Shown: positions 1,084-35,287 of the stretch, in pieces
Numbering within the stretch: the first letter of the stretch is position 1
How the letters are laid out: every line of letters begins with the position of its first letter
IMG/VR virus record: IMGVR_UViG_3300030329_005813
Span: 108,362 to 172,361 of that record
Length of the DNA stretch: 64,000 nt
Strand: one strand, 5' to 3'
Source: a virus
Made by a program: the position numbers and the translations under genes
Notes under the pieces: model-generated
Told to the model about the DNA's origin: nothing
What the model saw: the letters and a program-made list of their open reading frames with translations, nothing else
Databases searched by the model: none

Positions 1084-2157
1084 TTATTCTTGTTCCTCGC
1101 ACTTTTCAGTACCGGCTTTATCCTTGTGTGTAATAGTTGTTACAGGGCCAGTATAAATATCATAACGCGTTGAACGTCTTGTGTCCGGACAGTTAACATC
1201 CAATCCAACGCGTAATCTTTTCTTCTCAAACGTTGACTGTGCCTCGCATAAATCTGCTACATCTATTTCGTCGTCGACCAATACATTAAAATAATAATCT
1301 ACCATTTTATCGTCCAAGTTAATTAAAGGCTCTGCCGGCAACTCATCTCTATCAAATAAAATATTGTTCTTTACTAAATTAGTCTTTTTCTTAAAAAATA
1401 ATGGCTTAAGATTTTCTTTAATACTTCTATTTCCTGCTAAACCAGAACGAGCAGAAATCATATCTTCTTCTACTATTTCAAATATTTCCACCTCGACATT
1501 ACTCTTATCGTGTTCAGTGTTTTCCTCTATAACTTCTAACAATAAGTGATCCGGGTCAACGACAACATACGTTCCATCAGCGTAAACTTCACTGTTAAGA
1601 GCAGGATCTGGTACAATGGCTAGCTCATTTGTTGCCACTTGAGTATTAAATATGGATGTTTTATGCACTAAATCAACGTCAATTTGTGGAATCCTAAGTG
1701 TTTGATAGCTCGCTGTTAAGTGTGTGACTGAACCGCTTATTTCGCCGTTTAATACTTTAATTGACCATTTTGGAGCAGCATCTGTTTCTGGTGAGCATGT
1801 CCCAAGCGGCTCGGTTGCTAAGAAAAGTTTCTGCTCGTGAGCCTGTTCAACTGTTGCCAACATTTGAGCTTTATCTGTGTAGGCTCCCAAAGAAATAGCC
1901 GGTTGATATATTTTTTTTAAATTATATTCACGACCAACACGAGTGGTTACTGTTTTAAGCTGAGGGGTATTGTGTTGAATTCTGTCTTCTATGTCTTTAG
2001 AATATTCGGTTACATTAGCATAGTCACCATCGTAAAGAATATTACTATCGTGAAAAGAATAATATACTGGACGTAGCTTGCCAATAGATAGCAAATATCT
2101 TCCGTGAGGCGTTAGTTGTATATCTAAGACTTCTTCTTTTTTGTTTGCAAAAAGCAT
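1084..2157 (-). CDS. Hypothetical phage protein, 357 aa, in the baseplate module
   Basis: Long ORF tightly packed in the minus-strand structural operon; no recognisable catalytic motif. Confidence 0.75.
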   Translation of the reverse strand: MLFANKKEEVLDIQLTPHGRYLLSIGKLRPVYYSFHDSNILYDGDYANVTEYSKDIEDRIQHNTPQLKTVTTRVGREYNLKKIYQPAISLGAYTDKAQMLATVEQAHEQKLFLATEPLGTCSPETDAAPKWSIKVLNGEISGSVTHLTASYQTLRIPQIDVDLVHKTSIFNTQVATNELAIVPDPALNSEVYADGTYVVVDPDHLLLEVIEENTEHDKSNVEVEIFEIVEEDMISARSGLAGNRSIKENLKPLFFKKKTNLVKNNILFDRDELPAEPLINLDDKMVDYYFNVLVDDEIDVADLCEAQSTFEKKRLRVGLDVNCPDTRRSTRYDIYTGPVTTITHKDKAGTEKCEEQE

Positions 2158-2160
2158 ATA

Positions 2161-5100
2161 CTATTTCCTTGGCGGCAATTTAGATCTTTTTTTCGAGGGG
2201 CTCGCTTTTTTTTGAACTCCTTCCGCAACCTTTTCTTCATCCGACTTAATAACTAGTTTAGAATCAATATCTTTATCGATAGGTGAAAATTTAATTTCTG
2301 ACTCTAGTTTTATAAGCTCTATTAATGAAAAGAAGTCATATGGCCAGTTATAACTAAAACTTGTTTCAGCTGTTGCTTCTTTACTAGAGCGGCCGGCTTG
2401 AGACCTAAATCGATATCTTGGATCAGCATCCGTATCAAATCCTGCCACTTTAGAATAATAGTTGTTATTTGCTTTCTGCTTAACTTTGAAAACCATCCAT
2501 TTAAGTTTATCATTTATTGGCTCATTTGTTCTTTCGGCCACATTTCCAAATATTTCGTTTAATAATAGTTTGTGACTTATTTTGGTCTCAGCCATTTTTA
2601 CTATCTTGCCGGTAGGGGGCATTAAGTTTTGCCACATATGTACTAAATCATTTTGTGTAAACTCGTATTCAAATTCAAAAATATACATAGAAATTGGATC
2701 TACTTTGTCTGGGAACGAAAGGAAGTCCATTGTCGGAGGAATAACAAATTTTTGCATAGAGTTAACTAAGCTTTTAACGGACTCTCCGACTAAATCAGTG
2801 TCCGGATTTTTAACAACTGCGTTAACGAGCCTTTTATCGATATTAAAAAACTTTCTAGTACCGGCCTTCTCAATAAATGGAACAGCAACTATTCCCTCTC
2901 GTACTACTTTCTTATTGGCTGTTTGTCCGAGTTTAATTGATTTTTCTTCAAAAGTAATCACATCAAGTAATGAATTAATTCCGCCGCCGGCACCATAATA
3001 GCTATTATAGTTTCTGTGATCGTAAGCAGATGCGTTTTGATCAATTGTGTGGTTAGAGTCGCCGGCTGAAGATACATAAAGCGGTACTCGACCCTCAATA
3101 AACTCTGATGGAATTTCTGTAACTTCTAAAAAGATTCCCCTGGATGGATCCGTTGGAATTACGCCAAATTGATGCCACATGCCTCTGGAGACAGATTCAG
3201 AGTTGTTTGATGGATATGTTAAAGTTCCTACACTATTTTTAATCGGATGGACTCCAGTGTCTGAAAAATTATACATTGGTGTCTCAAACTTAGGCTGAAT
3301 CACCCAGCTTGAATTTTCTGCGCCTCCGGGTCGAACGGCTTTTGGATTTCCATTTTCATCAAATTCGGCAACTGGTTCAATAACCTTTTGGAAGAGGTTA
3401 AAAGATGAACTTAGCTGCATAGCAAATCTATTAATATTCATTTCACCATATGGATGTGTATTATTTGCTAATGAAAGGCCACCAGCAGAATGATCAAAGC
3501 GCCAATATATTTTTCTAGAAGTTGACAATATATCATCCAATGTCACGAAACTTGAACTAGGACTAAACAAAACATCACACCAAGCTTCACCATCATAATA
3601 TGGAGGGGTAAATCCTGGATTTACTCCCCTTAAGGAGTCGACTACTTTAACTCTATTATAGTAGTTGGCGGCGCCAATATCTTTTCCTCTTCCAGATACC
3701 GGTGGCCCGAAAGCTGATGGGCGACTATACATTGTAAATGTTTCGCGCAGATCTCTTATGCTATAATCTAAAAGAGTATCTTGAGGAACAAAATATTTCC
3801 CAATTCGACTTCGCTGGCGTGCAATATTGTAAGATTTACGAATTTTAATTCTCATACCATAAATTTCACCTTCCTTGAAGGCTTTAAATTGTTTTTCTGG
3901 TTTAGATTTAAGAGTGGTAAATTCTCCATTTGGTAAAAAGAATTCTGGTACCTCGGCTAAAAAGTTACTGGCCATCATCTTGTATAGATTATCGCCGCGA
4001 CCATCCCAAGAGCTTGTTAATCGCATTGAGGCTGATGGATGAGGTTCCATATCAACAAACTGTACATATGGAATATGATCTTCCGGTCTCACCAGTGTCT
4101 CGAATGGCACACGATAATCCCAACCAGATAGCTTTCCACCAGAGTCTTTCGGTGCATTGGAACTAGTTGCCAACAGGTAGTAATCTGTAGTTTCCCCGTC
4201 TACATCTTTAGGTCGGTTAACTCTATAGGAAGAAGTAAATACTGGATAATCTACGGCGATACCTGATTTAATTGTGTTAAATAGAATGCCCGGGGCAAAC
4301 AATGGTGCGATTAAAGGCCTAAGGCGCGCATTTGCAAACCCTTCATCGTTTGCACTACCCGGGGATGGGTTTGTTGTAAACGCAGCGTATGATTTGGAAA
4401 ATTGCGTTGCTATCTCTACAGTTCTTTCTGCTGGATAAAATCCATTATAAGGTAGAAATTTCATTGCCGCTTTACAAGTTAGTATCAACTCGGTGGGATT
4501 TGCAATTTCCTTATGATCTTTTCGTAGAGAAGCAAAGTGCTTTAAGAAGTCAGAAGTAGAATATACTGAATAAAAACTATCTTCTGAACTGTTTTGTGGC
4601 ACACTTGAGCCAGTGGGGGATCCCTCGATTGATAATAATTTAGGATTCTTAGCTAAGAAGTTACCTTGCTGCTGCTTCATATAAAAATCAATATGCTCGC
4701 TGATTCTAAACTCTGGCACTATTGAATAATCTTTGGCCATAACTCGCAAGTCTTCAGCATAGTCATCGTAACTATCGTAAAATGGAGCAGCTGATGCGCT
4801 TACAAAAACCCCGTCGGCGTTAATCTTACCTGCTTGTTCGCCGGCTTCCCACTTAGTAATTCCACCATAAATTTTCATTCTTCCCATAGGATGGCCGCCA
4901 ATTGGCGACACTGATGAAGTTGCTGCTAAATGAGGCCCTGTCAAAGAGCGCACAGAAGAAGTAGTTTGAATTAAATGTGGTCTTGCGTATATGCAAGAAG
5001 CTGTTACTGTAGTCTTATTGCCATGATGGATAAAGCTTGATATATCTTGTAAAATGCCCACCGAACCAGTATCTGCCAAAACAGCTTTAACGCTATCGGA

Positions 5101-8100
5101 GGAAGCCGTAACGTAAGATCCCTCTCTCATACCATCCAGGTTCCAAGAACTTCTCTTAGATCCTGGACCTACTATCGCCGCATCTGTGGCCGGGTCATTG
5201 CTATCAGCAGTTATACCGTGCCAACTTAGTTTTGATTGTCCCAAAGCTCTTCTATCGACTTCTGACGTTCTCCAAAAGTTGTTTGTATACGAGTTTCTTT
5301 TCCTTGCTTTGTAAATATAAGTGTTTGACTCTCTCGGATAAACACACTCTTTGTAAGAAAAATTAATAAAACTTTCAATAGGAGTGGAAGGGCTCTCTAA
5401 TCCGCCTCTTAAATAATATTCTGAGACTGTTTTATATCCAGCGGGAGGAGACTTGGTAAATCCTCTGTCTCTGTCAAGTTTCTTATCGGTAAAGAACACA
5501 AGATCATTTCCATACGTTGAATTAATATTAATCGGACGGGTTGCTGTTACTTCCTTGCCACGCTCTTTAAAAGTAGTTCTAGTGCCTAATCTAAATCTAG
5601 TAGGATAATATTTAGACGATACAGGAGGCTCTGTAAAAGTCCTTAAGGCGCCAAATCTTTCAACTTTTTCTTGCCTTCCTCTTCCCATATCCTCTGTAAC
5701 AAGATGACGGCCGGGAGTTTCATTATAGGAAATAATATTATTTCTTCTTAAGTAACGACCAATACGAGTTTCACCAGTACGAATCTGTTTCCAAGTAGGA
5801 TATCCGTATGGGCCATTTCTATTAAGGGTAAGAGAGTTTAAGACCGTAGCATCAATTCCTGGATTTCCACTAATCCCTAATGGCGTTGAAATAACCTCAC
5901 CGGTTGATGAGCCAGCAAGAGTGTTGCCATACAAGAACACAGCCCTGTCTGTTTTGCCAGATTGTGAACTACCAGTTAAAGTCAGAGTATTTGTATCGAT
6001 GACTTGGCGTATATTTAAATTTAAACCTACAAAGTCAGTATTAAGGAATCCCGTACCATAAGTTCCGTCATTAACAGATTTATCAAAAGTATTGGCATTA
6101 CCCCAAACTCTCAAACCATTACTATCAACCTTTGTAACATAATCACTAGCGCTTACAAAGTTATAAGCGGGTATAAATCCGGGACCAATAGAAACACCAT
6201 CACGATACGTAAAAGAGACTGAACTAGAGTGCATACCATCTGGATGGGGGTGTCCCAAAACAACGGTACGCTGACTTGGCTCATTATCAACTAAAGAAGC
6301 TGTAATCCAAGCATACTGTGTATCTGATTGCGGAATTTCGTGTGATATGTAATAGTTATCGCGGACGGCTTCTCTTACAGTTGTTTCAGACACTGTTCTA
6401 GAACTTGACAACTTGTATCTTAACGCAGAGTTTCTATTTGTCTTATGGAAAGCAGCAATTCCAGTATAATCGTCGCTGCTAACAGATGACCCTGAAGCAA
6501 ATCCAAACTGACCGGCGTGTTCTCTTAAAAGTATTTTTAAGGGAATCCTAACAGTTAAGTTTCTATAGTTTATACTATTGTAGGGTGAATATTGAGCCGA
6601 AGCGTAGTCTAAGGCTGGTCCACCATTTGCATCACCGGCTGTTTCAGGGCCGCCGGGTGCAGAAAATCTTTCTACAAAAATATAATCTGTTCTTCCAACC
6701 GAGCTGGACTGGATAGAAAAGTCTGGCTTGGCCACATCGGCAAACTCACCTAACTTACCAGCTGGGTTAGCTGAGGAATATCCTCTTGCGCTTTCTGCCC
6801 CGTCGCCTCCAGGATTAAATTTGCCCGTACCTTGATGTTTGATAAACGCTCTCTTGTTAGTATCGCGATCCGTAACTTGCACAATTTCATAGTGTTTTGT
6901 AAAGTTACCAATACTGTTTAGCTTGCCGGAACCAGTTAATTGTTGAATATTTCTAATATTAACAGGTCTTTTGGCCTTAACATTTCTATAAAAATCTCCT
7001 CTAGGCTTATCTGTATCTTGGCTAAGCACTTTGATACTGGTGCTTGAAACAGAAAGCTTCCAGCCCTCCAATCGGCTAGCTAGGGAGTCTAAATCGGTAT
7101 TTAAGTCGACGTGACGATGAGGCAACCCACCAACGTATTTTTCTGTAAATGGCCCCTGCATTGATGCTTCGCCAGTTTCAACGACATCTTGATGCAAGTT
7201 ATTGATTTCTAAAGTTCCAGCAGTAGAAAGACCTCCAATACTAACACTACTAAGGGTTGAAGCATAGCCTGTAGCTACACTTGATTTATATAGCGTAAAG
7301 GGAGCTATGCCCCCCTTAGAGGTTACTGCGGAGGCGTCAGTAGCCTGAAATATAAGTGGTGTTTTGTTGTTCGGAAGAGTTGGGTATGTTCCGGCTAAGG
7401 GCAGATGACGACTTTGAACACAGCTTTGTTCATCTTTAATGTTTGAAATTTCTATAAACTTAGATGCATCTCCCGGTGTTGTCGAATTTCTCCAATACGT
7501 ATACTTAGAATTTGGCCCACCTGCTGGGTTATGACCGGCGCCAATTTGACCATTCCAGGCGCCAATAATAGAGCGACTGCTCATTCCAATGCCCATAAAT
7601 AATCGATAAACTCTAGAAAATCTATTATTAGGATAATAAGAGCCTGTATAAATCGGAATGTTATTTACACCAACTTTTGTTACGCCGGCTGTGCCTTGAA
7701 GCGCGGTGTGCTGTGGAACAGAAGCGGATATAAAAGAGTAGCCTTTTTTCTTATATATTTCTCTTTGCTCATCAATAATCGCCACCTGCGCTGCACTTCT
7801 ATCTACAGATGCCTTATCAGAAGTAAGCGAAGCTCCTTGTCTTTCAGCTCTTTGCTTCCACCAAAGACAATTTTTGCCTTGGGGCTGTGGATGCACAACT
7901 TTGGTACCAGGATTATTTAATGGTGCGTGACCAATACGCCAGTTATACGTATGCTCGTAAAGTCCCTTAATTTGACCTTCTATTTCTGTCTTGGGAGTCC
8001 GAAGAGTTGGTAATTTATGACGATACTTATTTCTAGTTAATACAGTATCCTCTACCATATTTCGTATATCGTCAGAAAATCTAGATGAACCTGGGACCAA

Positions 8101-11100
8101 CTGCTGGAGCATTTGTCCTAAGGCTGTATCGAGCCATTGATAGTATGAAAGATACTTGTCTAAGTCTGGAATATTTTCGACTCTTTCGTAGAATATCTGC
8201 CTCAGCTTAGACATGTCTTTATATTCATGCCTATACCTGTTGATTGGCTCACCAATAAGATTATTAAACTCTTCAATTCCAGCAAACATATTTAACATTT
8301 CTTCTGAGATAGCTTGATACATACTCTTTTCAAATGTAAAATAATGCTTTATCGGTCTGGTTTCTCTGGTAAAAAGAAGATCGTCATCGGTTCTAATTTC
8401 AACCATATCGTGACTATTCATTTCTTCCGGAAGTTGGTATCTAGCGGAGCTAATGTAATTTGTATCAACCGCAGCAGTGGTATTTGTTTTGAAAAAATAA
8501 CCACGAGCATTATATTGATTGTTAACTATGGGATCCATATCCGGGTCACGAAATCTTCTTTTCGTTAGTGACCCAGAGGAAAAATCCTGTACAATAAACT
8601 CTCCGTCTGCATCTGAACCAGTGACGTTAGAAAAGTCCCAGTTAAGGGCTAGAGTTTCATATTCCGGGATCCACACACCAGTTAGCGCATTTTCTAATAA
8701 ATACGCACTTCTTAGAGGATGACGGGCGCCATAGTTTTCGGTATCACGGGCATGTGCTTGTATAACTTTGTTGTCCAGATACATTTGCCAGTGTCGAAGG
8801 TAACCAACTTTAACACTAGAATACTCATTAATTGTTCCGCCGGTAACATTAGTTCTACGAGCACCAACATAATATCTTCTAGGTACTGTAATGTCAGAGT
8901 GAATCGCATTACCACTTAAAGCAAACTCTTCTACAACTTGATCGTATACTGTATGTACGCCGTAAAGACTAACTTCTACATGAGTACTAGGGCCGGTATC
9001 TCCTGGGCCGCCGGTTAAATAGGTACCTATATGACCGTGAGTTGAAGATGGATCGGCTGGGGTGATGGATGAAGTTAAAACATTTCTAGTTCTTAGTGCA
9101 AAGGTCCAGCGTTGATCGTCGTATACATCCATATACATACTAGAAGTTGCTATTGTTACGTTATTTGATCGATCAATTAAATAGAAACTAGCGTGTTTAG
9201 ATTCAGAATCTGGTCGAACAGCAAGGACTTGATATCCTGAACCGCCCGAAGGTTTAATAAAGTCATCTGGGTCTGGATCAGCTTGGTCCCAACCAAATAT
9301 AGAAGAGGACACAAAAGTTAACTCGACATATCCAATATCAGCTGGTGATTTAATCCGTGGAAAAATAACTTCCGATTCTGCTGTAGTAGATATATCCTTA
9401 TGAGAAGCTGAGATATAAGTTACGCCAATCGAATCAGAGTTTTTGGCCCCACCAGCCTGACTAGATGTCTGGTGTGTTACAACGGCATCTTGATTATCTG
9501 TTTGGTGAAAATCAATAAAATTCTTTTTTACAGCTTTTGGTCTGAAATTATTTCTCAGTAGTTGTGTCGTATTATCCGCGTAGAGGTTAATTCTTATGAG
9601 ATCTTCATCTACACCAAAGCAACGTATTAAGTTACGAAATGATTTTTCAGTTCCCTTTGATTTAAAAATATAAACTAAGTTGTTGTAGATATTCTTATAG
9701 ATTAAATTCTTAATCTTATGCAGATCTTCGCTATACTCTCTTTTTGAGTCTAAGTTTCGAATTGCAGATATTACATCAGCGTTGGCAAATATCTCTGAAT
9801 TTATGAAACCTTTGGATTCCAAGAGACGATTTGCAAACGGCAGTGGTTTTCCACTTGAAGTTTGATACGTGGTAGAATGTAGTGATGGTATTGCCTCTAT
9901 CTGAAGATAAAGCGTATCAAAGTAATTACCAATAATCTGGGTTAGGTTTTTAAGCTGGCCGCCGGACTCTGTATCTTCATCAATAATCCAACTTGGAAGA
10001 GAATGATAAATAGAATTGCTATTTCTAATATCGTGATAGCTAGCTGAGGCCGCAAGATTATTTCTCAGTGTTTGTATATCTGGATGCGTATGGTATACTA
10101 CAGGATCTTTGTACTCTGATTTATTAGAGCCGCTGGACTCTATGATAGCCGAGCCCGTGCTTCTTGCATCGGATGCATAACCAACCCAAATACCGTTTGA
10201 CGTGCGACCAGAGTAGTCCAACACAACGGAGTCTAAAGTAGAATCAGTTGTAATCCCTTCGTTGAATTTATAATATACGCCCAGCTCAGCGTTTGATATG
10301 TCTGTATTTGTTCCGCCGCGAACTTGTGTAAAATAATTGTCTCTAATTTGTTTACTAGTTCTTTGCACTTTCCAATATCTAAACTCATCGATAGAGCCAG
10401 ATAACTTGCCCCAGCCAACCATATTGTCGGATGGAGTAGTTGTAGACACTGGCAGATTAGGATGCGTCTGAAGGGCGCCGATAAATCCAATCAAAGAGCC
10501 TGTAACTTCGCCAGTTGTAGAGCCGGTGGCTACTGTATTGACAAGTTGGCCGTCGCGATAAAACTTAACGACGTTATTGGAGGCACCTTTTACAATTGAA
10601 AAAGCATAATGGTGCCATTTATTATCGGCCACTTTTGAAGTAGTTATAGTTGCGCCACCTAGCGGCAGGTTTTGGAAGCCAGCACCTGCACCGGTTGCAA
10701 TTGCCCCGGAAACAAAAGTAAGGCGAAAAGGGTTCTCATTAGATTCGGCAGGACCGGAAGCGGTAAGCTCAATTCTTAAACGGCCGTGCCTAGCATCCGA
10801 AGAAGTGACTTGGTTCCATAGATCAAAAATAACTTCCTTTTGTGTTTTGCTAGCGATAAAAGATTCTTTTTTAAGCCAAAATTCGACCGTGATACCATCG
10901 TCAAGGTTCATACGAAGGTTTGATTCATAAGTGCCGTCGCGGCCCGCTGGAGACGCCTTAGCGGCGCTGTAAATGTCTGTACTGTAATAGTTTGAACCAG
11001 TAAATGAAACTCCGAGCGAACCTGAGGGCATACCATACGATGCGGTATGAGGGCCACCACGAACTTCAATATACTCTTTATTTGTGGGCTCACCATAGTA

Positions 11101-11514
11101 TTGGTTTGCTGCTGCTGGAGATGTATCATTTGCACCCCAGCCGCCATTATCATCGGAAGTATCGTGAGGTGAGAAAGTAATATATCCTGTTGTTCTAGGA
11201 TATAAGTTGTCAAATATATACCTATCAATATAATTTGACTCATTGTGGTATTCGTTTATTTCAGCTTCTGAACCATCGTAAGGATAAGATCTAAGAATCC
11301 TATCAACAGCATCTACATAATACTTCTCTGCTAATCCGAATCTGGCAAAGTTCTCAGGATTTGAAAAATCAACTTGAGGGATATAACGGTCGATATCGAT
11401 AAATCTTTGTTTTATGTTTCTTTCTGATTCAGCGCCAGCATCTAGGCTCTGGAGGTCAGTAGACGTAACAACTTTATCGGTCTTACCCTTGTCAAAAAGT
11501 TTCTTAATAGCCAT
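2161..11514 (-). CDS. Giant baseplate/tail protein, 3117 aa, with a LamG (concanavalin-like) domain and a gp7/P2-I-like wedge segment
   Basis: LamG signature ITVEFWLKK...DNKWHHYAF...KFYRDGQLV...GSIDEFRYWK; IFKSKGTEKSFRNLIRCFG resembles the baseplate KGT motif; lies downstream of gp25/gp6-like genes. Confidence 0.75.
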   Translation of the reverse strand: MAIKKLFDKGKTDKVVTSTDLQSLDAGAESERNIKQRFIDIDRYIPQVDFSNPENFARFGLAEKYYVDAVDRILRSYPYDGSEAEINEYHNESNYIDRYIFDNLYPRTTGYITFSPHDTSDDNGGWGANDTSPAAANQYYGEPTNKEYIEVRGGPHTASYGMPSGSLGVSFTGSNYYSTDIYSAAKASPAGRDGTYESNLRMNLDDGITVEFWLKKESFIASKTQKEVIFDLWNQVTSSDARHGRLRIELTASGPAESNENPFRLTFVSGAIATGAGAGFQNLPLGGATITTSKVADNKWHHYAFSIVKGASNNVVKFYRDGQLVNTVATGSTTGEVTGSLIGFIGALQTHPNLPVSTTTPSDNMVGWGKLSGSIDEFRYWKVQRTSKQIRDNYFTQVRGGTNTDISNAELGVYYKFNEGITTDSTLDSVVLDYSGRTSNGIWVGYASDARSTGSAIIESSGSNKSEYKDPVVYHTHPDIQTLRNNLAASASYHDIRNSNSIYHSLPSWIIDEDTESGGQLKNLTQIIGNYFDTLYLQIEAIPSLHSTTYQTSSGKPLPFANRLLESKGFINSEIFANADVISAIRNLDSKREYSEDLHKIKNLIYKNIYNNLVYIFKSKGTEKSFRNLIRCFGVDEDLIRINLYADNTTQLLRNNFRPKAVKKNFIDFHQTDNQDAVVTHQTSSQAGGAKNSDSIGVTYISASHKDISTTAESEVIFPRIKSPADIGYVELTFVSSSIFGWDQADPDPDDFIKPSGGSGYQVLAVRPDSESKHASFYLIDRSNNVTIATSSMYMDVYDDQRWTFALRTRNVLTSSITPADPSSTHGHIGTYLTGGPGDTGPSTHVEVSLYGVHTVYDQVVEEFALSGNAIHSDITVPRRYYVGARRTNVTGGTINEYSSVKVGYLRHWQMYLDNKVIQAHARDTENYGARHPLRSAYLLENALTGVWIPEYETLALNWDFSNVTGSDADGEFIVQDFSSGSLTKRRFRDPDMDPIVNNQYNARGYFFKTNTTAAVDTNYISSARYQLPEEMNSHDMVEIRTDDDLLFTRETRPIKHYFTFEKSMYQAISEEMLNMFAGIEEFNNLIGEPINRYRHEYKDMSKLRQIFYERVENIPDLDKYLSYYQWLDTALGQMLQQLVPGSSRFSDDIRNMVEDTVLTRNKYRHKLPTLRTPKTEIEGQIKGLYEHTYNWRIGHAPLNNPGTKVVHPQPQGKNCLWWKQRAERQGASLTSDKASVDRSAAQVAIIDEQREIYKKKGYSFISASVPQHTALQGTAGVTKVGVNNIPIYTGSYYPNNRFSRVYRLFMGIGMSSRSIIGAWNGQIGAGHNPAGGPNSKYTYWRNSTTPGDASKFIEISNIKDEQSCVQSRHLPLAGTYPTLPNNKTPLIFQATDASAVTSKGGIAPFTLYKSSVATGYASTLSSVSIGGLSTAGTLEINNLHQDVVETGEASMQGPFTEKYVGGLPHRHVDLNTDLDSLASRLEGWKLSVSSTSIKVLSQDTDKPRGDFYRNVKAKRPVNIRNIQQLTGSGKLNSIGNFTKHYEIVQVTDRDTNKRAFIKHQGTGKFNPGGDGAESARGYSSANPAGKLGEFADVAKPDFSIQSSSVGRTDYIFVERFSAPGGPETAGDANGGPALDYASAQYSPYNSINYRNLTVRIPLKILLREHAGQFGFASGSSVSSDDYTGIAAFHKTNRNSALRYKLSSSRTVSETTVREAVRDNYYISHEIPQSDTQYAWITASLVDNEPSQRTVVLGHPHPDGMHSSSVSFTYRDGVSIGPGFIPAYNFVSASDYVTKVDSNGLRVWGNANTFDKSVNDGTYGTGFLNTDFVGLNLNIRQVIDTNTLTLTGSSQSGKTDRAVFLYGNTLAGSSTGEVISTPLGISGNPGIDATVLNSLTLNRNGPYGYPTWKQIRTGETRIGRYLRRNNIISYNETPGRHLVTEDMGRGRQEKVERFGALRTFTEPPVSSKYYPTRFRLGTRTTFKERGKEVTATRPININSTYGNDLVFFTDKKLDRDRGFTKSPPAGYKTVSEYYLRGGLESPSTPIESFINFSYKECVYPRESNTYIYKARKRNSYTNNFWRTSEVDRRALGQSKLSWHGITADSNDPATDAAIVGPGSKRSSWNLDGMREGSYVTASSDSVKAVLADTGSVGILQDISSFIHHGNKTTVTASCIYARPHLIQTTSSVRSLTGPHLAATSSVSPIGGHPMGRMKIYGGITKWEAGEQAGKINADGVFVSASAAPFYDSYDDYAEDLRVMAKDYSIVPEFRISEHIDFYMKQQQGNFLAKNPKLLSIEGSPTGSSVPQNSSEDSFYSVYSTSDFLKHFASLRKDHKEIANPTELILTCKAAMKFLPYNGFYPAERTVEIATQFSKSYAAFTTNPSPGSANDEGFANARLRPLIAPLFAPGILFNTIKSGIAVDYPVFTSSYRVNRPKDVDGETTDYYLLATSSNAPKDSGGKLSGWDYRVPFETLVRPEDHIPYVQFVDMEPHPSASMRLTSSWDGRGDNLYKMMASNFLAEVPEFFLPNGEFTTLKSKPEKQFKAFKEGEIYGMRIKIRKSYNIARQRSRIGKYFVPQDTLLDYSIRDLRETFTMYSRPSAFGPPVSGRGKDIGAANYYNRVKVVDSLRGVNPGFTPPYYDGEAWCDVLFSPSSSFVTLDDILSTSRKIYWRFDHSAGGLSLANNTHPYGEMNINRFAMQLSSSFNLFQKVIEPVAEFDENGNPKAVRPGGAENSSWVIQPKFETPMYNFSDTGVHPIKNSVGTLTYPSNNSESVSRGMWHQFGVIPTDPSRGIFLEVTEIPSEFIEGRVPLYVSSAGDSNHTIDQNASAYDHRNYNSYYGAGGGINSLLDVITFEEKSIKLGQTANKKVVREGIVAVPFIEKAGTRKFFNIDKRLVNAVVKNPDTDLVGESVKSLVNSMQKFVIPPTMDFLSFPDKVDPISMYIFEFEYEFTQNDLVHMWQNLMPPTGKIVKMAETKISHKLLLNEIFGNVAERTNEPINDKLKWMVFKVKQKANNNYYSKVAGFDTDADPRYRFRSQAGRSSKEATAETSFSYNWPYDFFSLIELIKLESEIKFSPIDKDIDSKLVIKSDEEKVAEGVQKKASPSKKRSKLPPRK

Positions 11515-11522
11515 TTATTAAC

Positions 11523-13124
11523 TTATTCCACTCTAAATTTAAATGTTTCCGGTTGCTCATCCCAAGACCCAACGGAGCCATTATAGTAAGCCACTTTGAT
11601 AGCATATGCGTATCCTGGTTCAAACAATCGCATATCAACGTCAAAATAGTTTCCTGAAACGTCGTATGACATTTGTGTGTGTAGCAAACTACCGGTGCCG
11701 TGTGGAATAACTTCAAGCTCATCTATGACTCTGTAAAATCTATAAGACCCACTATCAATAATATATGGAGTTGCCTCAACAGTGGCTTTAGTGTAAATAG
11801 TTGGGCACCAATCTTTTTGTCTGACATATAATCTAAAACGAGCTTGTTCATTCGTGGAATATATTGATTTTAAATTCGTAATGCTAGAAGCATAAGTTGT
11901 AGATGGATTTAAAGCAGGAGTATCAAACTTCTTGGGCCTAAATGATGAAGTTAAAAATTCTATTCTGCCGGTTTGATTATGAACGCCTGTGTTTGCCCAA
12001 ACAGCGTATACTTTCGTTATGTCAACTGTTGAGGAAGTAATTGCAAAAGATGCAGAGTATATTCCTGTTGAAACATAACCACCTGTAATCACTGTGTTGC
12101 CAGCCGCTTGAACGCCGCCACCTTGAGGAAGCAAAATTGATGATGTTGATGGAGATGTATTTCCTATAGATCCTGAATAGAGTTCTACAAAAAGAGGTCC
12201 AGTGCCGATGTCTGGAATATTTCTTAGTTGCCCTCTAACGTAGTTATACATATAAATTGTATTTAAGTTTTCTGCTTGCGGGGCCAACGAGCTACTAAAA
12301 AATATGTTGCCAGTGTCGTCTTTAGTAGCGCTATTCCATCGAGCCTCAAGGCAGGGACGCTTAAAGAAAAACTCAGTTCCCCTTGCAAAAAACTTCTTTG
12401 TATAGAACGAAGTAGTTGACCCAGTAAGATTATTTAAGTTTCCATCGTGGTCTGTTCCGGATGGATTTCCTTGAAAGTAGGCCTCTTGTGATCCTGTTAG
12501 GCGAACTATAAAGCCATGATTCTTTTTTGTGCCGTCAAGCCATTGTTCGACTAACGTTGTCACGTTAATTTTTAAATCCGCGGTTGGGCCGCTACCAGTT
12601 ACTCCTGATACACCTGCACCAAAAGATGCCGTATATGTAGGAGACTGGTGGAAATTTCCACCTTGCCTATCCCACGCAACCCGAACTCCATTGTCACCAT
12701 CTTCGGCATAAACCCAGTTACAACCACCATCTCCATTAGTTAGATCTGTATAGCCTTCCATATCTAGGCCTTTGCCTTCGGACCAATCTTTTTGTAGTGC
12801 CTCGATCACTAAAATTGCATTTTTTGGAAGAGTCTGACTATGTTCAGCGTTATACAATCTTAAATAAAAATCTACTTGGTTTGCAGCAGGTAAATCACCA
12901 TTGTTTCTATCGACTTTAATGGTATTTGCGGCGCCGGACAAATCAAACTTGATTAGGGCTCGCGCAAGCTCTTGAGACCCGGATGATTCTTGCCCATAGA
13001 TAGAAAATACTTCTAGTATATCAGATAAACCCATATTAGCACCAGTAGCTCGGGTTGTTAGATTACTTTGAAAAGCGTTTGTTATTGTGTTGTCTGCACT
13101 GGCATAATATCTCTTAATAGCCAT
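11523..13124 (-). CDS. Virion structural protein with a DNRLRE-like beta-sandwich domain
   Basis: ADNTI...N.GLSDILEV...RALIKFDLS...YLRLYNA...WSEG.G...DLKINVTTLVEQW...NHGFIVR pattern; located in the baseplate operon. Confidence 0.6.
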   Translation of the reverse strand: MAIKRYYASADNTITNAFQSNLTTRATGANMGLSDILEVFSIYGQESSGSQELARALIKFDLSGAANTIKVDRNNGDLPAANQVDFYLRLYNAEHSQTLPKNAILVIEALQKDWSEGKGLDMEGYTDLTNGDGGCNWVYAEDGDNGVRVAWDRQGGNFHQSPTYTASFGAGVSGVTGSGPTADLKINVTTLVEQWLDGTKKNHGFIVRLTGSQEAYFQGNPSGTDHDGNLNNLTGSTTSFYTKKFFARGTEFFFKRPCLEARWNSATKDDTGNIFFSSSLAPQAENLNTIYMYNYVRGQLRNIPDIGTGPLFVELYSGSIGNTSPSTSSILLPQGGGVQAAGNTVITGGYVSTGIYSASFAITSSTVDITKVYAVWANTGVHNQTGRIEFLTSSFRPKKFDTPALNPSTTYASSITNLKSIYSTNEQARFRLYVRQKDWCPTIYTKATVEATPYIIDSGSYRFYRVIDELEVIPHGTGSLLHTQMSYDVSGNYFDVDMRLFEPGYAYAIKVAYYNGSVGSWDEQPETFKFRVE

Positions 13125-14920
13125 TATTCAATCGTTCCTTTGATATCAGCATCAGGATATTTAAGTTCCATACACACATTGTCTGGCACACTTACAAATC
13201 TACCGTCCGCTGATAACTGCTGATTAAAATTCATAGATGTGCTTGAGTAAGCACCCGTGGTGCGAGGCATTATTTTTACGTTTTTAACATCGATGATTCC
13301 AGGCACGTCTTTATTTAAAATATTGTATATATCAGTAATATATAATCTTTCTCCCATGTATAGAGGCTGAGCATACATCGCGGCAATTGCATTCTGGGCG
13401 GCTGCCAACACTTGAAATTTATTAAAACTTGGGTCTGCTACGGCATGAAACTCAATTGCAAAATTAACTATTTTTCCGTCTAAAATATCAATCGTATCGT
13501 GAATCATTTTGTAGTTGTTTAACCACATTTTTAAATTTTCTTTCAATGTGTTATTAGCTTGAACAAGATAACGATTCTGATTTTCGGCTAAAACATACAT
13601 ATTTAAGTTTCTTTTGAAAGAGTCTGGGTCTTGTACCACCCGAATTCTTTTAATTGTTCCAAATTTTGGCGGCATAGCGTATGAAATAGCCTCAAAATCC
13701 TGTAGTGTAACAGCGCGATTTTGTGTTGCGAAATGATCATAAGCTCTTCGCTTGATTTCATCAGCCGTTGGGAAAGACACACTACCAACAATTGGCTCTT
13801 CGTTATATACTTCTATAGACTCTCTAATTGTTCTTTGGGTTGCGGTGGGCACCTTGTCAGGACTGTTGTAAGTTACAATGGCATTATCTACCTTATCTAC
13901 AGCACCAATTCTAGCATTTGTATTTCTAGTTGTATTTTCTCTATAGGTAATCGTTAATATTGTATTAGATGGACCGACGCCAAACTTGTCGGTTTCTAAT
14001 AGTTTTGCGGGATCAAAACTTGTATCACTAATAAACTCTCTACCGTGCATTTTTAATGCTATATTTGTTGGCTCCGCAACTGTTGTGGTTTTTAGCTCTG
14101 AGTCCGAACCATATCCAAATTGAAGATAATACTTTCCGTCTTCTCTTTCTACCACAAATCTTCTAGCGGCAACAAAAGGTTTCATAATTGCCGGGGTCGA
14201 ATCTCCGTCAGTGCCTCTATTCGTTACGGATTTATAGATTACATTTTGTGATAAATAGTCAACCTCGTGATATTCGTGCCCCTCTTCATCGACAACTGAT
14301 ACTATTTCTGTCAACTGTCGCGAAGACAATGGAATTTTTCTAAATTTTATAAAGTCTCCAATGGTTATTCGCTCTCTGCTGAACCCACCGGATATTATTT
14401 TACCATAAGCTTTTATAGCGTATGACGTAGGTATACCGGTTGAGTCGTTAACTCGTGCGGCCACAACTTCATTAAATGCATTATCAAATCGAACGTCTTC
14501 ATCCAATATGTATTTATTACCGGTTTGAGACGAGACTGTTGTACCTCTTTTTAAAATAGGCTTATATGTACTATTCGGACCAAGACCAACATCATTAGCT
14601 GGTACAATACAGAAAAATGCTGCGACACCCACAGCCGATGGAACGCCCCGATATTTAAATCCGAGTTGTTTCGATAATCTAACAACATTTGTAAACTCTG
14701 CTGTTGAGTCAAGAAATGATTCATTAACCTGATAGTCTAGATAAAAAGACATAATGTCGCCAACGTAAGCAACTGTATCTAATATTAAAGACCCAAATGA
14801 AGCTTGATTAAAATCTTTATATACTTCTGGATAATAACGCTTGGCATACTGTACCAGATCACTCTTGATAGTGTCGAATTCTCTGTTTGTGTATTTAATG
14901 GGTGTTTTTAAATTAGCCAT
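13124..14920 (-). CDS. Baseplate wedge subunit (T4 gp6 / baseplate J-like)
   Basis: YTNREFDTIKSDL...DFNQASFGSLILDTVAYVGDIMSFYLDYQVNESFL, LQFGYG, QNRAVTLQDFE. Confidence 0.9.
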   Translation of the reverse strand: MANLKTPIKYTNREFDTIKSDLVQYAKRYYPEVYKDFNQASFGSLILDTVAYVGDIMSFYLDYQVNESFLDSTAEFTNVVRLSKQLGFKYRGVPSAVGVAAFFCIVPANDVGLGPNSTYKPILKRGTTVSSQTGNKYILDEDVRFDNAFNEVVAARVNDSTGIPTSYAIKAYGKIISGGFSRERITIGDFIKFRKIPLSSRQLTEIVSVVDEEGHEYHEVDYLSQNVIYKSVTNRGTDGDSTPAIMKPFVAARRFVVEREDGKYYLQFGYGSDSELKTTTVAEPTNIALKMHGREFISDTSFDPAKLLETDKFGVGPSNTILTITYRENTTRNTNARIGAVDKVDNAIVTYNSPDKVPTATQRTIRESIEVYNEEPIVGSVSFPTADEIKRRAYDHFATQNRAVTLQDFEAISYAMPPKFGTIKRIRVVQDPDSFKRNLNMYVLAENQNRYLVQANNTLKENLKMWLNNYKMIHDTIDILDGKIVNFAIEFHAVADPSFNKFQVLAAAQNAIAAMYAQPLYMGERLYITDIYNILNKDVPGIIDVKNVKIMPRTTGAYSSTSMNFNQQLSADGRFVSVPDNVCMELKYPDADIKGTIE

Positions 14921-15366: not shown

Positions 15367-18300
15367 TTAGTCTTCCGTAAAATCATCTTCTGGATCATAA
15401 CATAAGTTTCCATCTTTATCGTATGGCCTATCAACTTTCTTTTGCCAAAGGCGCACATTAAATTTTGGCCAGGGCGGGGCCGTATCTTGCCTGAGCATTT
15501 CTTCCATCTCTGTGCTTGTCAATGACTCACTAATATATAGTGGGTTTTCTAAATTATATAGGTCCATAAAATTGTGTGCAACTATTCTTTTTGTTCTACT
15601 AAACGCGTTTTTAAATTCCCATCTCTTAAAATTAACGGCAAATGGAGACAGGTTTAATCCTCCACCATAATATTCACTAGGGGCAAATGGACCACTGGGT
15701 TTATACCAACCGTCGTTATCTTCGCCTTGGCCGGGGCGGCCATGAGTATCGACCCACGCGCCGGGAAATTCATATGGGCCTTCCATTGTTCCATCAGCAC
15801 CCTCAGCCCCTGCCTTGCCAATAGAGGGCGGAAATGCGTTAATAATGTATACTGCTATGACTGACATAATTCTTGGCATATTAAAACAATATCTAAAAAG
15901 CATCTTGTACTCTGGACCACATACCAAGCCCTGTATTAACGGGGCCATACCACCTATACCATCATATGAATCATACCAACTTGCATCAGCTAAATCTGTA
16001 CCCATCGGCATAACTAACTCACTTTTTACTAGTGGTATGCTCATTGGATTTTCGTCTACATTAGAAGTACCTATGGAAAAAGCTTTATTATTTTGTCGTG
16101 TAGCAGCCGGATAATAAGAAGTTACTGTGCTGAGTAATTCTTTTAGATTAGAAGATTTTGGCAGTATGGATTCCGTACTTTTATTTGGTGGAACAAAAAC
16201 AATTCTTAACCCATAGGACCAGGATTGCCATAAATCAACTTTTTGAAGATTTAAAGGTTCAAAAATTGATGCCTTTGATGCTAACCAAGCTTGCCACTCT
16301 GAGGCCTTTACCACTCCGAATAAATGTGGGTCGCGACTCTGGACATGTTGCCGCCAAACTTTTGGTATTCCACTGGACTCAAGATCGCCATACTTAGACC
16401 TTAAACTACTAAGAACAGCCGTTGTATTTGCTGCGCCGGCGACAAGATTTACAAAATATTGCTCGTCGTAGTCCTCCACGTAAATATAACTCTCTAATAC
16501 AAAAGGTGAATAACGATTTTTACTTTCATTGGAAGGTTCAAGAGCGCTTGGAGACATAGGATTTAAGCGCTCTTCGGCGTCGGGATTTGAGTATTTTTCA
16601 AAAAAGATATTAGAATCTCCCGCATAGCCCGATATCTTGGGGTTGACCGCGTTATGCACAACGGCAAAAGGATTTGCTAAACTAGATGGTTTTGCAAAAG
16701 TATTAAAATCAATATTACCATAACACCCATATGTTGAATCACCCAAGAAAGCTTCATATAAAGTTTTGTACTCTGGTGGGATTCTTTTTGAAAACTCTCC
16801 GGAAATATAAGCCAACTCTTCTTTAATATATCTAGATAATATTATTTCTGCGTAGGGCTCCACTTCTCTCATAAAGTAGTCCCACGATCTTTCTTTTAAT
16901 TTTCTAGCTTCTTCAATACTAAGAGCATTGTCATTATTTAGTGGATTTAAAAATCCTTTTGATATATTTGCCAAGTGCTCACGAAATATACTAGGTGGCA
17001 TTACTCTTTTTAGTTTTTCGCCGGTATTAGCATATGGCTTATCGCTTGTAAGTGTAGGATCTTTTTTCCATATACCTTGCAGACCGTTAATGATATCAAC
17101 TGCTTCTTGTTCTTCTGTAGTGGCCTCGACCAAACCAGCGTCCAGCTTGCGACCAAAGTTTTGTACCGCTTGCTCTAAAAACTGAAAATAATACTCATCA
17201 TTTTTTCTTCTGCCAAAACCCTTAACTGAGTATTGTAGAAATCCGTCTTTTAATGTCTGAGTTATATATCGAGCCAAAAGACTATCATAAACTTCATTAA
17301 AGTCGGCCTTAAACTTAACAAAACTTGGCATGCCTTTGAGGACAGCTTCAGTAATATAGATTCTTATTGTTGATTTAATCAAGCCCTCTATCATTGAAGC
17401 TGTCGATCTTCTCATTACTTTGCCGCAGGGAGGCTCCAAAACACAATGAGAACTTTGATTTATTCTTGGATCGTCAGCTATTTTTTTGTGAAACTCCATC
17501 ACTTGCTTACCGATTTGTTTAAAATCAACAATATTTTTTCTTTTTGGGTCGCATGCATCAACTTCGGGTATCATTTTATCTGCTATTCCACACCATCCAT
17601 TTCTATTTTGTGGCGGCTGCATATAGAATGATGGAAAAACATCGTTTCCTCCAAATGCTATAGGGTCGATTGGTTCTGGAAGACCAGTTACTGGATGTCG
17701 ATGTGTCTTGTCTAGATTGATTTTTCTAGGGGCATATCTTACTGGATCATTTCCGCTGAAGGTGCTTCCACCTTCACCATAAAGAAATGCTGTATTGTTA
17801 TGTCCTATCATACTAGCTAATGAATTAAAAAGACTAGTATTAATATAGCCATACATTTCTGTTGCACATATTTCTGCAATATTACTAAAAGATTGAGCGA
17901 TTGCAGCACCTTCCATGATTGGGGTCGCTGCGGGCCACTCGTCTCTTAAGATTTTTTCTATGTATTTACCAAATACAACTCCTTGAGCCGATAGCCCAGC
18001 AGAACTAGCTATAGTATTATTTTTAATTTGATTAATTGTTTCTTTGACAGTTTTTATTACTTCGTCAATTGAAGTCTGTAGTTCGTCGCGAACATTTTGA
18101 AGTTCAGTTCGATCATAAGTTTGACCGCCAAATTGACCGGTATCTGGGGTTATTATTTGCTCTACATCTATTTCCCTAAGGGCAGGAAGTAGACCATTTT
18201 CTAAATGAGCATATTCATTTGATGGTGCATTTGAAATATTTACTGAATGCAAATCTAAAGTTAAATTAGTTGCATCAACATAAACTTTGTTTGAGTTGTA

Positions 18301-33537: not shown

Positions 33538-33539
33538 TG

Positions 33540-35286: not shown

Positions 35287-35287
35287 T

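What the first reader, a model, noticed from the sequence alone, without database searches (positions are those of the whole stretch)
2161..13124. [S/T]-[G/A/S]-S tripeptide enriched in specific baseplate proteins: candidate glycosylation sequon
Seen (manual, approximate counts): about 40 TGS/SGS/TAS/SAS/TSS/SSS tripeptides in the 3117-aa protein and about 13 in the 533-aa protein (e.g. FTGS, LTAS, VTGS, LSGS, ISAS, YSGS), often after a hydrophobic residue. The neighbouring 2393-aa protein has only about 6, and the gp6-like protein very few. They are dispersed rather than tandem, so they are not a simple low-complexity linker. Inference: a recognition sequon for the adjacent glycosyltransferase cluster that marks surface-exposed virion proteins.
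Basis: partly seen in the sequence, partly recalled or inferred. Interest (0 to 1): 0.8.

Follow-up and report, generated by a model that had tools for sequence, protein, structure and literature searches.

The report
Candidate sugar-attachment motif on phage tail proteins
A five-residue serine motif is strongly enriched and conserved on the baseplate and fibre proteins of a widespread marine phage family, and it vanishes in relatives that lost the phage's sugar-gene island, so it is probably a sugar-attachment signal, though no attached sugar has been shown.

Summary
The 2393-aa and gp6-like neighbours are at chance.

- **Motif:** it sharpens to hydrophobic-[T/S]-[G/A/S]-Ser-hydrophobic. Only Ser, not Thr, is enriched at the third position. 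Codon usage is ordinary.
- **Distribution:** only five tail, baseplate or neck proteins of the 172-kb genome are enriched. Capsid and sheath are not.
- **Conservation:** sites are kept as a motif class across hundreds of homologues, and 47 of 49 related contigs are enriched.
- **Controls:** T4 and cyanophage S-WAM1 lack the enrichment.
- **Decisive evidence:** two motif-poor lineages keep the same proteins (32-41% identity), but nearly every conserved site is replaced, mostly by charged or polar residues. Both keep a conserved GT4 glycosyltransferase pair and have lost the whole variable sugar island.
- **Caveat:** huge phage LR756508 has an island and one of the two GT4 genes, but no motif.

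The motif is therefore not a fold requirement and tracks the complete glycosylation system. An O-glycosylation sequon is the best reading (about 0.6) but is biochemically unproven. The scan flagged the same motif from an overlapping window. Cultured relatives (Flavobacterium phage immuto, Mel-JY01, RM378) make it testable.

The parts
2161..11514 (-). 3117-aa giant baseplate/fibre protein (N-terminal LamG-like region; no Pfam or PHROG hit for this copy) carrying 42 motif sites between residues 157 and 2702
   Evidence: About 935 long homologues, many precomputed as PF13385. All 120 listed homologues are enriched (5308 vs 1653). 21 of 42 sites keep the motif class in at least half of 44 full-length homologues.
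11523..13124 (-). 533-aa all-beta baseplate protein directly after the gp6-like wedge gene, with 13 motif sites
   Evidence: More than 5000 homologues, all 121 tested are enriched. Sites are positionally conserved, up to 118 of 119. AF2 model has pLDDT 83.6 with a CBM/jelly-roll module plus Ig/FN3-like modules.
13124..14920 (-). gp6-like baseplate wedge protein; internal negative control (0 sites) and the phylogenetic anchor
   Evidence: phrog_219 baseplate wedge; 0 vs 1.0; used.
15367..22548 (-). 2393-aa protein between the hub module and gp25; not enriched (6 vs 4.4)
1084..2157 (-). 357-aa protein downstream of the giant protein; only 2 sites, both with hydrophobic flanks (2 vs 0.0-0.1 expected); weak
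26432..36629 (-). Variable part of the glycan island: UDP-sugar dehydrogenase, epimerase/dehydratase, GT2, 2-hydroxyacid dehydrogenase, CMP-sugar cytidylyltransferase, GT29-like, NeuB, sulfotransferase-like, FkbM and other methyltransferases, GT4, GT2
   Evidence: Pfam. This segment is replaced by unrelated glycan genes in relatives and is absent in the motif-poor lineages.
36613..38718 (-). GT4b: 701-aa GT4 glycosyltransferase. The N-terminal ~400 aa are conserved in immuto, Mel-JY01 and 12 related contigs; the EX7E motif is intact; the C-terminal ~300 aa are specific to this phage
38715..39974 (-). GT4a: 419-aa GT4 glycosyltransferase, conserved partner of GT4b, EX7E intact; best solved relative is chlorovirus B736L
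39984..40745 (-). PD-(D/E)XK nuclease gene that always flanks the GT4 pair; a synteny marker, no role claimed

Best explanation
Hydrophobic-[T/S]-[G/A/S]-Ser-hydrophobic is an acceptor motif (sequon) for O-glycosylation of the phage's own baseplate, fibre and neck proteins in the infected cell's cytoplasm.

Shown:
- The motif is precise and conserved as a class.
- It is confined to a few virion proteins.
- It is dispensable for the fold.
- It is kept only in genomes that have both the conserved GT4a+GT4b pair and a multi-gene sugar island.

Inferred:
- The invariant GT4 pair (most likely GT4b, possibly together with GT4a) reads the invariant motif and adds the first sugar or sugars to the Ser/Thr hydroxyls. 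These project from one face of a short extended segment whose other face is hydrophobic-small-hydrophobic.
- The hypervariable island makes the special nucleotide sugars and extends the glycan. In this phage it encodes a NeuB-type nonulosonic-acid synthase, plus methyl and sulfate transfer enzymes. The result would be strain-specific glycan coats on the tail tip.
- Where the island is lost, the full glycan can no longer be made. Selection on the sites then relaxes, and they decay to ordinary surface residues.
For: 1. Precision: only T/S, then G/A/S, then Ser (not Thr) are enriched, with hydrophobic flanks and no codon bias. This survives 20-aa local shuffles.
2. Class-level selection: sites such as 490, 552 and 980 of the giant protein keep the motif in 44-45 of 45 homologues while residues and flanks change. 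Control tripeptide classes score 0.07-0.21 against 0.49. In the 533-aa family, conservation reaches 118 of 119.
3. Restricted targets: only 5 of about 176 ORFs are enriched, all tail, baseplate or neck proteins. The rest of the proteome is near expectation.
4. Not generic: T4 gives 82/77 and flanked motif 7/12; S-WAM1 gives 28/18. Both lack GT1/GT2 genes.
5. Breadth: 47 of 49 gp6-anchored viral contigs (29-56% gp6 identity) are enriched. So are cultured immuto (85/19; one spike protein 60/20), Mel-JY01 (58/17) and RM378 (36/11).
6. Natural loss: in the G007/G026/G027/G029 and G006/L249/L253 lineages the orthologues (39-41% and 32-36% identity) have lost essentially every conserved site. All five 87-99% conserved sites of the 533-aa protein are gone. 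Only 1-2 of 18 conserved sites of the giant protein remain, replaced mostly by E/Q/D/K with the flanks kept.
7. In those lineages the island is reduced to nuclease+GT4a+GT4b, with 0.4-0.8 kb to the next conserved gene. Motif-positive relatives, including the sister clade G009, have 5.8-13 kb of glycan genes there.
8. Only GT4a and GT4b are shared among the islands of this phage, immuto and Mel-JY01, and both keep EX7E.
9. The conserved sites sit in mixed structural contexts.
10. Precedent: flagellin nonulosonic-acid O-glycosylation hits Ser-x-Ser pairs flanked by hydrophobic residues (PMC9290775). Serine-rich repeat adhesins combine conserved priming GTs with variable extending GTs (PMC6973325).
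Against: - No glycan, mass shift or enzyme activity has been observed; everything is comparative.
- The GT4 pair is intact (EX7E) in the motif-poor lineages, so the pair alone does not maintain the motif.
- LR756508 has GT4a plus a glycan island (cytidylyltransferase, GT29-like, GT25, two sulfotransferases) but no motif (31/27).
- The independent transitions are few: one or two within the family plus LR756508 (quick tree).
- No island gene other than the pair is common to all motif-positive genomes. GT2 is absent from several.
- Many sites lie in beta-strands rather than loops. In the immuto spike the motif forms tandem 6- and 9-residue repeats that could be a fibrous structural repeat.
- Solvent exposure was inferred from substitutions, not measured on coordinates.
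- An earlier scan note says the island has early-type promoters. I did not check this.
Confidence: 0.6

Rival explanations
1. Structural or assembly motif: the pentapeptide is a lineage-specific building block of beta-rich fibre and baseplate domains. Examples would be a serine-lined strand for tight sheet packing, or a triple-beta repeat, as the tandem 6/9-residue arrays in the immuto spike might suggest. It would have no link to modification.
For: About half of the sites in the 533-aa model are in or at the ends of beta-strands. The hydrophobic-polar-small-polar-hydrophobic alternation is strand-like. The immuto spike has tandem arrays.
Against: Orthologues of the same proteins in two lineages and in LR756508 lack the motif altogether, with charged residues at the hydroxyl positions. 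T4 fibres and baseplate proteins show none. The motif occurs in non-homologous proteins and in mixed contexts: inter-helix loop, flexible linker, strand start, strand end. Thr, which is favoured in strands, is not enriched at +2.
Confidence: 0.1
2. The motif is an acceptor or docking site for another trans-acting factor linked to the island but not a glycosyltransferase acting on protein. Candidates are Ser phosphorylation, sulfation or acylation, or non-covalent binding of a phage-made polysaccharide or a decoration protein to hydroxyl-rich patches.
For: The coordinated loss of sites in several proteins at once requires a common trans-acting cause but does not identify it. This island has a sulfotransferase-like gene and methyltransferases.
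Against: Island content differs completely between motif-positive genomes. The only constant enzymes are two GT4 glycosyltransferases with intact catalytic motifs. No kinase or acyltransferase is conserved with the motif.
Confidence: 0.15
3. Ecological coincidence: the motif is a host- or receptor-related surface feature, such as a glycan-binding or water-ordering T/S-x-S face. The island is a separate host-interaction module. Both are lost together when a lineage changes host or lifestyle.
For: There are only one to three independent transitions. LR756508 shows that an island and the motif can be uncoupled.
Against: It would require the same receptor-type feature on five different proteins, including a neck protein, and 40+ dispersed sites on a 3117-aa protein. 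Motif-positive phages infect very different hosts (Flavobacterium, Microcystis, Rhodothermus), which argues against a host-specific ligand.
Confidence: 0.08
4. Compositional or mutational artefact: Ser/Thr/Gly-rich low-complexity drift or slippage repeats.
For: The enriched proteins are somewhat Ser-rich (10% Ser), and the motif-poor orthologues have less Ser (6-9%).
Against: Local shuffles, directionality, Ser-not-Thr specificity, lack of codon bias and positional conservation over hundreds of homologues.
Confidence: 0.02

Closest known systems
Flagellin O-glycosylation with nonulosonic acids (Maf-type; Aeromonas, Campylobacter, Clostridium)
   Same: Cytoplasmic O-glycosylation of many Ser/Thr on a folded, surface-exposed structural protein. 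There is no strict consensus, but modified Ser-x-Ser pairs are flanked by hydrophobic residues (PMC9290775). The pathway includes NeuB and a CMP-sugar synthetase, as in this phage's island.
   Different: Pfam found no Maf-family transferase in the island. The middle residue here is small (G/A/S), not hydrophobic. The motif is far sharper. The targets are phage tail proteins. Relatives with the same motif have islands without nonulosonic-acid genes.
Serine-rich repeat adhesin glycosylation (GtfA/GtfB primer plus variable GTs)
   Same: A conserved adjacent pair of GT-B proteins, with variable further GTs giving different glycans (PMC6973325). Acceptors are alternating Ser. The immuto spike carries dense tandem [ST]-A-S-[YF] arrays.
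   Different: Both phage GT4s keep the catalytic EX7E, whereas GtfB is described as a non-catalytic chaperone. Pfam reported no DUF1975. Sequence similarity to GtfA is only generic GT4 level (E 0.003-0.06). Most sites here are dispersed in folded domains. There is no aSec export.
Mycobacteriophage virion glycosylation (Freeman et al. 2023, as summarised in PMC12619734)
   Same: Phage-encoded glycosyltransferases decorate the phage's own virion proteins.
   Different: There the glycans sit on the C-termini of capsid and tail-tube subunits. Here the capsid is not enriched (3 vs 2.1), and the sites are a defined pentapeptide dispersed over baseplate, fibre and neck proteins. I could not read the primary paper.
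Chlorovirus and giant-virus autonomous capsid glycosylation
   Same: Virus-encoded cytoplasmic glycosylation machinery with atypical acceptor sites (PMC4691112). The best solved relative of GT4a is chlorovirus B736L.
   Different: Chlorovirus glycans are N-linked to Asn with no common sequence pattern. Here the acceptor would be Ser/Thr in a sharp motif, in a bacteriophage.
Bacteroidota general O-glycosylation sequon D-[ST]-[AILVMT]
   Same: A short three-residue O-glycosylation sequon in the phylum of at least one host (Flavobacterium; recalled from general knowledge).
   Different: That sequon is not enriched in the five proteins (16 vs 17). That system acts in the periplasm, whereas virion proteins assemble in the cytoplasm.

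Membership tests
Protein O-glycosylation sequon | Short motif containing a Ser/Thr acceptor, over-represented and conserved in the substrate proteins | tested here: met
Protein O-glycosylation sequon | Acceptor side chains are solvent-exposed on the folded substrate | tested here: inconclusive
   Indirect only. Positions 0 and +2 are replaced by E/K/D/Q in motif-poor orthologues while the flanks stay hydrophobic. DSSP contexts come from two AF2 models. No coordinates were available to compute accessibility.
Protein O-glycosylation sequon | The motif co-occurs with the cognate glycosyltransferase system across genomes | tested here: met
   All motif-positive records whose island region is covered have the GT4 pair plus a variable island. 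Island-less lineages are motif-poor. T4 and S-WAM1 lack both. Caveat: LR756508 has an island and GT4a but no GT4b and no motif.
Protein O-glycosylation sequon | A glycan is covalently attached to the motif Ser/Thr | not testable with these tools
   Needs glycopeptide mass spectrometry of virions.
GtfA/GtfB serine-rich-repeat glycosylation | Priming complex of a catalytic GtfA and a non-catalytic GtfB that interact through DUF1975 | tested here: not met
   Both phage GT4s keep EX7E. Pfam reports only Glycos_transf_1-type domains. GtfA hits have E 0.003-0.06.
Maf-type flagellin nonulosonic-acid glycosylation | A Maf-family transferase next to the nonulosonic-acid synthesis genes | tested here: not met
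   NeuB and a cytidylyltransferase are present, but no Maf-family Pfam hit appears among the island proteins. Two island ORFs have no family.
Mycobacteriophage-type virion glycosylation | Glycans on C-terminal tails of the major capsid and tail-tube subunits | tested here: not met
   The capsid protein is at expectation (3 vs 2.1), and sites are dispersed in baseplate and fibre proteins.
Bacteroidota general O-glycosylation | D-[ST]-[AILVMT] sequon on the targets | tested here: not met
   16 observed vs 17.1 expected in the five proteins.

The most novel reading that the evidence does not exclude
A globally abundant family of marine and freshwater T4-like phages uses a genetically encoded glycosylation code. 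One fixed pentapeptide, hydrophobic-[T/S]-[G/A/S]-S-hydrophobic, is written 10-60 times into each baseplate or fibre protein. It is read by a virus-specific GT4 pair. A hypervariable gene island, comparable to an O-antigen locus, extends the primer into strain-specific glycans. Tail tips would thus acquire 'serotypes'. Lineages that drop the island erase the code from all target proteins.
Probability: 0.45. Interest if true: 0.85.

Novelty: new variant of a known kind. Interest (0 to 1): 0.78.

Why it matters
Virion glycosylation is documented for only a few phages, and no short O-glycosylation sequon is known for phage tail proteins.

If this motif is a sequon, several things follow:
- Glycosylated virion proteins could be predicted from sequence alone in a phage family with thousands of members in ocean metagenomes.
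- It would explain why these phages carry hypervariable sugar islands without export genes.
- It would point to glycan coats on the host-recognition apparatus as a diversifying trait, bearing on host range, protease or decoy resistance, and particle stickiness.
- A compact, portable Ser-specific tag plus a small GT pair could be useful for glyco-engineering.

Three cultured phages carry the system, so the hypothesis can be tested directly.

Tried and rejected
- **DNA-level cause:** rejected. Codons at the motif mirror background usage.
- **S/T/G-rich patches:** rejected by local shuffles.
- **Generic property of phage fibre beta-structure:** rejected by T4 and S-WAM1 and by motif-less orthologues.
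- **Classical sequons:** D[ST][AILVMT], N-x-[ST] and TxT are not enriched.
- **GT2 as the common denominator of motif-positive genomes:** rejected. Several motif-positive records have no PF00535 hit.
- **GT4 pair alone as a sufficient predictor:** rejected by the G007 and G006 lineages.
- **"Any glycan island" as a sufficient predictor:** rejected by LR756508.
- **Family searches on the two large proteins:** Pfam and PHROGs gave nothing.
- **tblastn of the 533-aa protein against 50,697 cultured phages:** nothing found.
- **Sequence search of GT4b against solved structures:** uninformative.
- **Marine phage proteomics paper (PMC12014285):** no phage glycosylation data.
- **Freeman et al. 2023:** not held.
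- **Metagenome records:** could not be searched with the genome search. The same contigs were reached through viral contigs instead.
- **First co-occurrence attempt on five fragmentary contigs:** indecisive.
Full report
**Setting.** The window is the last 64 kb of a 172-kb, about 95% complete, uncultured IMG/VR virus record. It is a T4-like myovirus. Portal, major capsid and sheath genes lie upstream of the window. Inside the window the genes run on the minus strand in this order:
- PhoH, then a PD-(D/E)XK nuclease;
- a 13.5-kb glycan island (26432-39974);
- a hub module with an M15 peptidase, then a 2393-aa protein and a 129-aa ORF in the position of T4 gp25 (not family-searched here);
- a gp6-like wedge protein (phrog_219);
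- the 533-aa protein and then the 3117-aa protein.

**Observation.** Exact counts of [ST][GAS]S are as follows:

| Protein | Observed | Expected | z |
|---|---|---|---|
| 3117 aa | 42 | 13.0 | 8.3 |
| 533 aa | 13 | 2.2 | 7.5 |
| 2393 aa | 6 | 4.4 | 0.8 |
| gp6-like | 0 | 1.0 | n/a |

Shuffling within 100-, 50-, 30- or 20-residue blocks hardly changes this (z 7.4-8.1). The reversed motif is near chance in the giant protein (20 vs 13). A preceding hydrophobic residue raises the contrast (22 vs 3.8; 9 vs 0.7).

**Definition of the motif.** Scanning each position against local shuffles in the enriched proteins gave:
- position 0: only T (z 10.4) and S (5.8);
- position +1: only G, A and S (8.9, 5.9, 4.8), with I, L and Y depleted;
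- position +2: only Ser (79 vs 24.8, z 11.8), with Thr at chance (18 vs 18.5);
- positions -1 and +3: L/V/I/A/F/Y and F/V/Y/I/L/M; neither Pro nor Glu occurs at +3.

Codons at the sites follow background usage, so the signal is in the protein. D[ST][AILVMT], N-x-[ST] and TxT are not enriched.

**Which proteins.** In the whole genome only five ORFs stand out. They are the two flagged proteins and three outside the window:
- a 404-aa protein (genome 98403-99617; 11 vs 2.0);
- a 360-aa protein (99633-100715; 7 vs 0.8 for sites after a hydrophobic residue);
- a 436-aa neck-like protein (73917-75227; 6 vs 1.0; phrog_211).

The capsid (3 vs 2.1), the portal, the 1304- and 1276-aa proteins next to the giant one and the rest of the proteome are at expectation. 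The sheath is marginal (8 vs 3.7).

**Conservation.**
- The 533-aa protein has more than 5000 homologues in marine metagenomes and none in cultured phages. All 121 tested are enriched (1700 vs 453).
- Individual sites are kept as a class: Y/F-SSS in 118 of 119, GTGS in 118, Y-S/T-AS in 110, E/D-SGS in 113.
- The giant protein has about 935 long homologues, and all 120 listed are enriched (5308 vs 1653).
- Against 44 full-length homologues at about 40% identity, 21 of 42 sites keep the motif class in at least half of them and 9 in at least 80%.
- At sites 490, 552 and 980 the class is kept in 44-45 of 45 while the actual residues and flanks vary.
- Control classes score 0.07-0.21 against 0.49.

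Selection therefore acts on the motif class itself.

**Structure.** An AF2 model of the 533-aa protein (pLDDT 83.6) is an N-terminal CBM/jelly-roll-like module followed by Ig/FN3-like modules. By DSSP about half of the 13 sites are in or at the ends of beta-strands, and the rest are in adjacent coil. A model of residues 430-1010 of the giant protein (pLDDT 66) puts the conserved sites in an inter-helix loop, a flexible linker, a strand start, a strand end and coil beside strands.

**Controls in other phages.** All ORFs of at least 150 aa were scanned identically. "Flanked motif" means hydrophobic-[ST][GAS]S-hydrophobic.

| Phage | GT1/GT2 Pfam hits | Flanked motif obs/exp |
|---|---|---|
| T4 | none | 7/12 (plain motif 82/77) |
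| Cyanophage S-WAM1 | none | 28/18 |
| This phage | yes | 42/15 |
| Flavobacterium phage immuto (closest cultured relative, gp6 31%) | yes | 85/19 |
| Microcystis phage Mel-JY01 | yes | 58/17 |
| Rhodothermus phage RM378 | GT4a only; weak sub-threshold GT2-like hit | 36/11 |

In the phages with enrichment, it is concentrated in baseplate, fibre and spike proteins. The immuto 1053-aa spike has 60 sites vs 20, partly as tandem 6- and 9-residue [ST]-A/G-S-[YF] repeats. So the motif is not a generic feature of phage fibres.

**The glycosyltransferases.**
- Of the roughly 14 island genes, only the adjacent 419-aa GT4 (GT4a) and the first 400 residues of the 701-aa GT4 (GT4b) are shared with immuto and Mel-JY01. 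They sit in the same order beside the same nuclease gene.
- Both keep the GT4 EX7E motif.
- Look-alike clusters of GT4b, the one queried, are almost entirely viral.
- The best solved relative of GT4a is chlorovirus B736L.
- The pair was found in 12 of 20 related records. The other eight are fragments that do not reach far enough upstream.

**The decisive comparison.** Anchoring on gp6, 47 of 49 viral contigs (29-56% gp6 identity) show strong enrichment in the genes downstream. The exceptions, L159 (G007) and L118 (G006), have the same gene architecture. Their orthologues of the 533-aa protein are 39-41% identical over about 470 residues, yet every highly conserved site is replaced:

| Site in the 533-aa protein | Kept in family | G007 | G006 |
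|---|---|---|---|
| FSSSL | 99% | AKRKT | AESNL |
| YSASF | 92% | YYVDV | YAATV |
| DSGSY | 95% | EKAYY | EAAYY |
| GTGSL | 99% | GIGTS | GIGGT |
| YSGSI | 87% | YTDSA | YPTEE |

- In the giant protein, 18 sites are kept in at least 60% of the motif-positive family. Only 1-2 survive in each of G027, G029, G007 and G006. They are replaced mostly by E, Q, D or K while the hydrophobic flanks persist.
- In the 80%-complete G027, all five orthologues are at or near expectation: 0/0.9, 24/14.4, 3/1.7, 7/2.1 and 2/1.0.
- The motif is therefore dispensable for the fold, its hydroxyl positions behave as surface positions, and the sites are lost together across proteins. That calls for a common trans-acting cause.

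**Link to the island.**
- In G007, G026, G027 and G029 the island is reduced to nuclease+GT4a+GT4b, followed within 0.4-0.8 kb by the conserved hub-side genes. There is no GT2 and no homologue of any other island gene, even on the 145-kb G027.
- The second motif-poor lineage (G006 and its relatives L249/L255 and L253/L256) has exactly the same reduced layout.
- Motif-positive G009 (sister of the G007 clade), G014, G024 and G025 have 5.8-13 kb of genes at that position. These are glycan genes of different chemistry:
  - G009: sugar kinase, GT17-like, GDP-mannose dehydratase, transketolase-like, methyltransferase;
  - G024: UDP-GlcNAc 2-epimerase, DegT aminotransferase, oxidoreductase, UDP-sugar dehydrogenase.
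- A quick gp6 tree needs at least three changes of motif status: LR756508, the G007 clade and L118. The two within-family lineages may reflect one or two events.

**Caveats.**
- The GT4 pair is intact in the motif-poor lineages, so the pair alone does not maintain the motif.
- LR756508, a 484-kb phage of the same broad clade, has the nuclease, GT4a and a glycan island (cytidylyltransferase, GT29-like, GT25, two sulfotransferases). It has no GT4b and no enrichment (31/27), and its baseplate orthologues are motif-free.
- GT2 is not common to all motif-positive genomes.
- Every motif-positive genome examined has both the pair and an island, but the number of independent transitions is small.
- Nothing here shows a covalent glycan.

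**Interpretation.** The invariant motif goes with an invariant GT4 pair and a hypervariable sugar module. This is the same logic as the conserved priming GTs plus variable extending GTs of serine-rich repeat adhesins (PMC6973325). The acceptor architecture resembles the hydrophobically flanked Ser-x-Ser pairs modified with pseudaminic acid on Aeromonas flagellin (PMC9290775). The best reading is that the motif is an O-glycosylation sequon. It would be primed by the GT4 pair, with GT4b the better candidate because it is missing in LR756508. The primer would then be extended with island-made sugars. Sites would decay once the island is lost. I put this at about 0.6. The alternatives are another island-linked modification or binding partner, a structural repeat, or an ecological coincidence.

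**Relation to earlier notes.** The scan had already noted the island as a probable self-decoration system with unproven target (e1-5698553). It had also flagged the same tripeptide enrichment from an overlapping window (e1-5698554, follow-up withheld). My analysis is independent of that follow-up.

Noticed in passing
L034:35659-38820 (Flavobacterium phage immuto NC_055915, 97658-100819): The annotated 1053-aa 'tail spike protein' carries 60 motif sites, many in tandem 6- and 9-residue repeats of the form [ST]-[AG]-S-[YF]-x-x. It looks like a serine-rich repeat region within a phage spike.
   Followed up: partly
window 26432-36629, compared with G009, G014, G024, G025 (L224-L231): The segment between GT4b and the hub module is hypervariable between relatives with 46-56% gp6 identity. 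It holds 6-17 genes of unrelated sugar chemistry at the same position, much like an O-antigen locus.
   Followed up: partly
G017:C1:91695-93410 and G002:C1:104099-105064 (records behind L157 and L019): In some relatives the GT4b match and a GT2 (PF00535) match fall in one 657-669-aa open frame, an apparent GT4b-GT2 fusion. In this window GT4b instead has a ~300-aa C-terminal extension of unknown type and is followed by a separate 250-aa GT2.
   Followed up: no
Mel-JY01 PP395634 83441-84932 (L061): The GT4a orthologue is split into two adjacent ORFs (190 and 302 aa). This could be a frameshift, a sequencing error or a genuine split.
   Followed up: no
window 15367-22548 (-): The 2393-aa protein between the hub module and the 129-aa gp25-position ORF has no real Pfam or PHROG family (only one marginal PHROG hit of unknown function). 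It is not motif-enriched, and orthologues of 1760-2280 aa hold the same position in relatives. Its role is unknown.
   Followed up: no
G027:C1:130936-133020 (L216): In the otherwise motif-poor G027, a 694-aa protein far from the tail module has 6 sites vs 1.0 expected, but in acidic rather than hydrophobic contexts. It is probably a different, low-complexity phenomenon.
   Followed up: no
Motif-poor orthologues of the giant protein (G006, G007, G027, G029): The invariant Ser at +2 is most often replaced by Glu or Gln. If the lost glycan was acidic, this could be charge compensation. That is pure speculation.
   Followed up: no
RM378 NC_004735 9165-11893 (L077): The annotated glycosyltransferase (GT4a homologue) is followed by a 425-aa hypothetical protein. 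Only its N-terminus resembles GT4b, and it lacks a canonical EX7E. RM378 shows moderate motif enrichment.
   Followed up: partly
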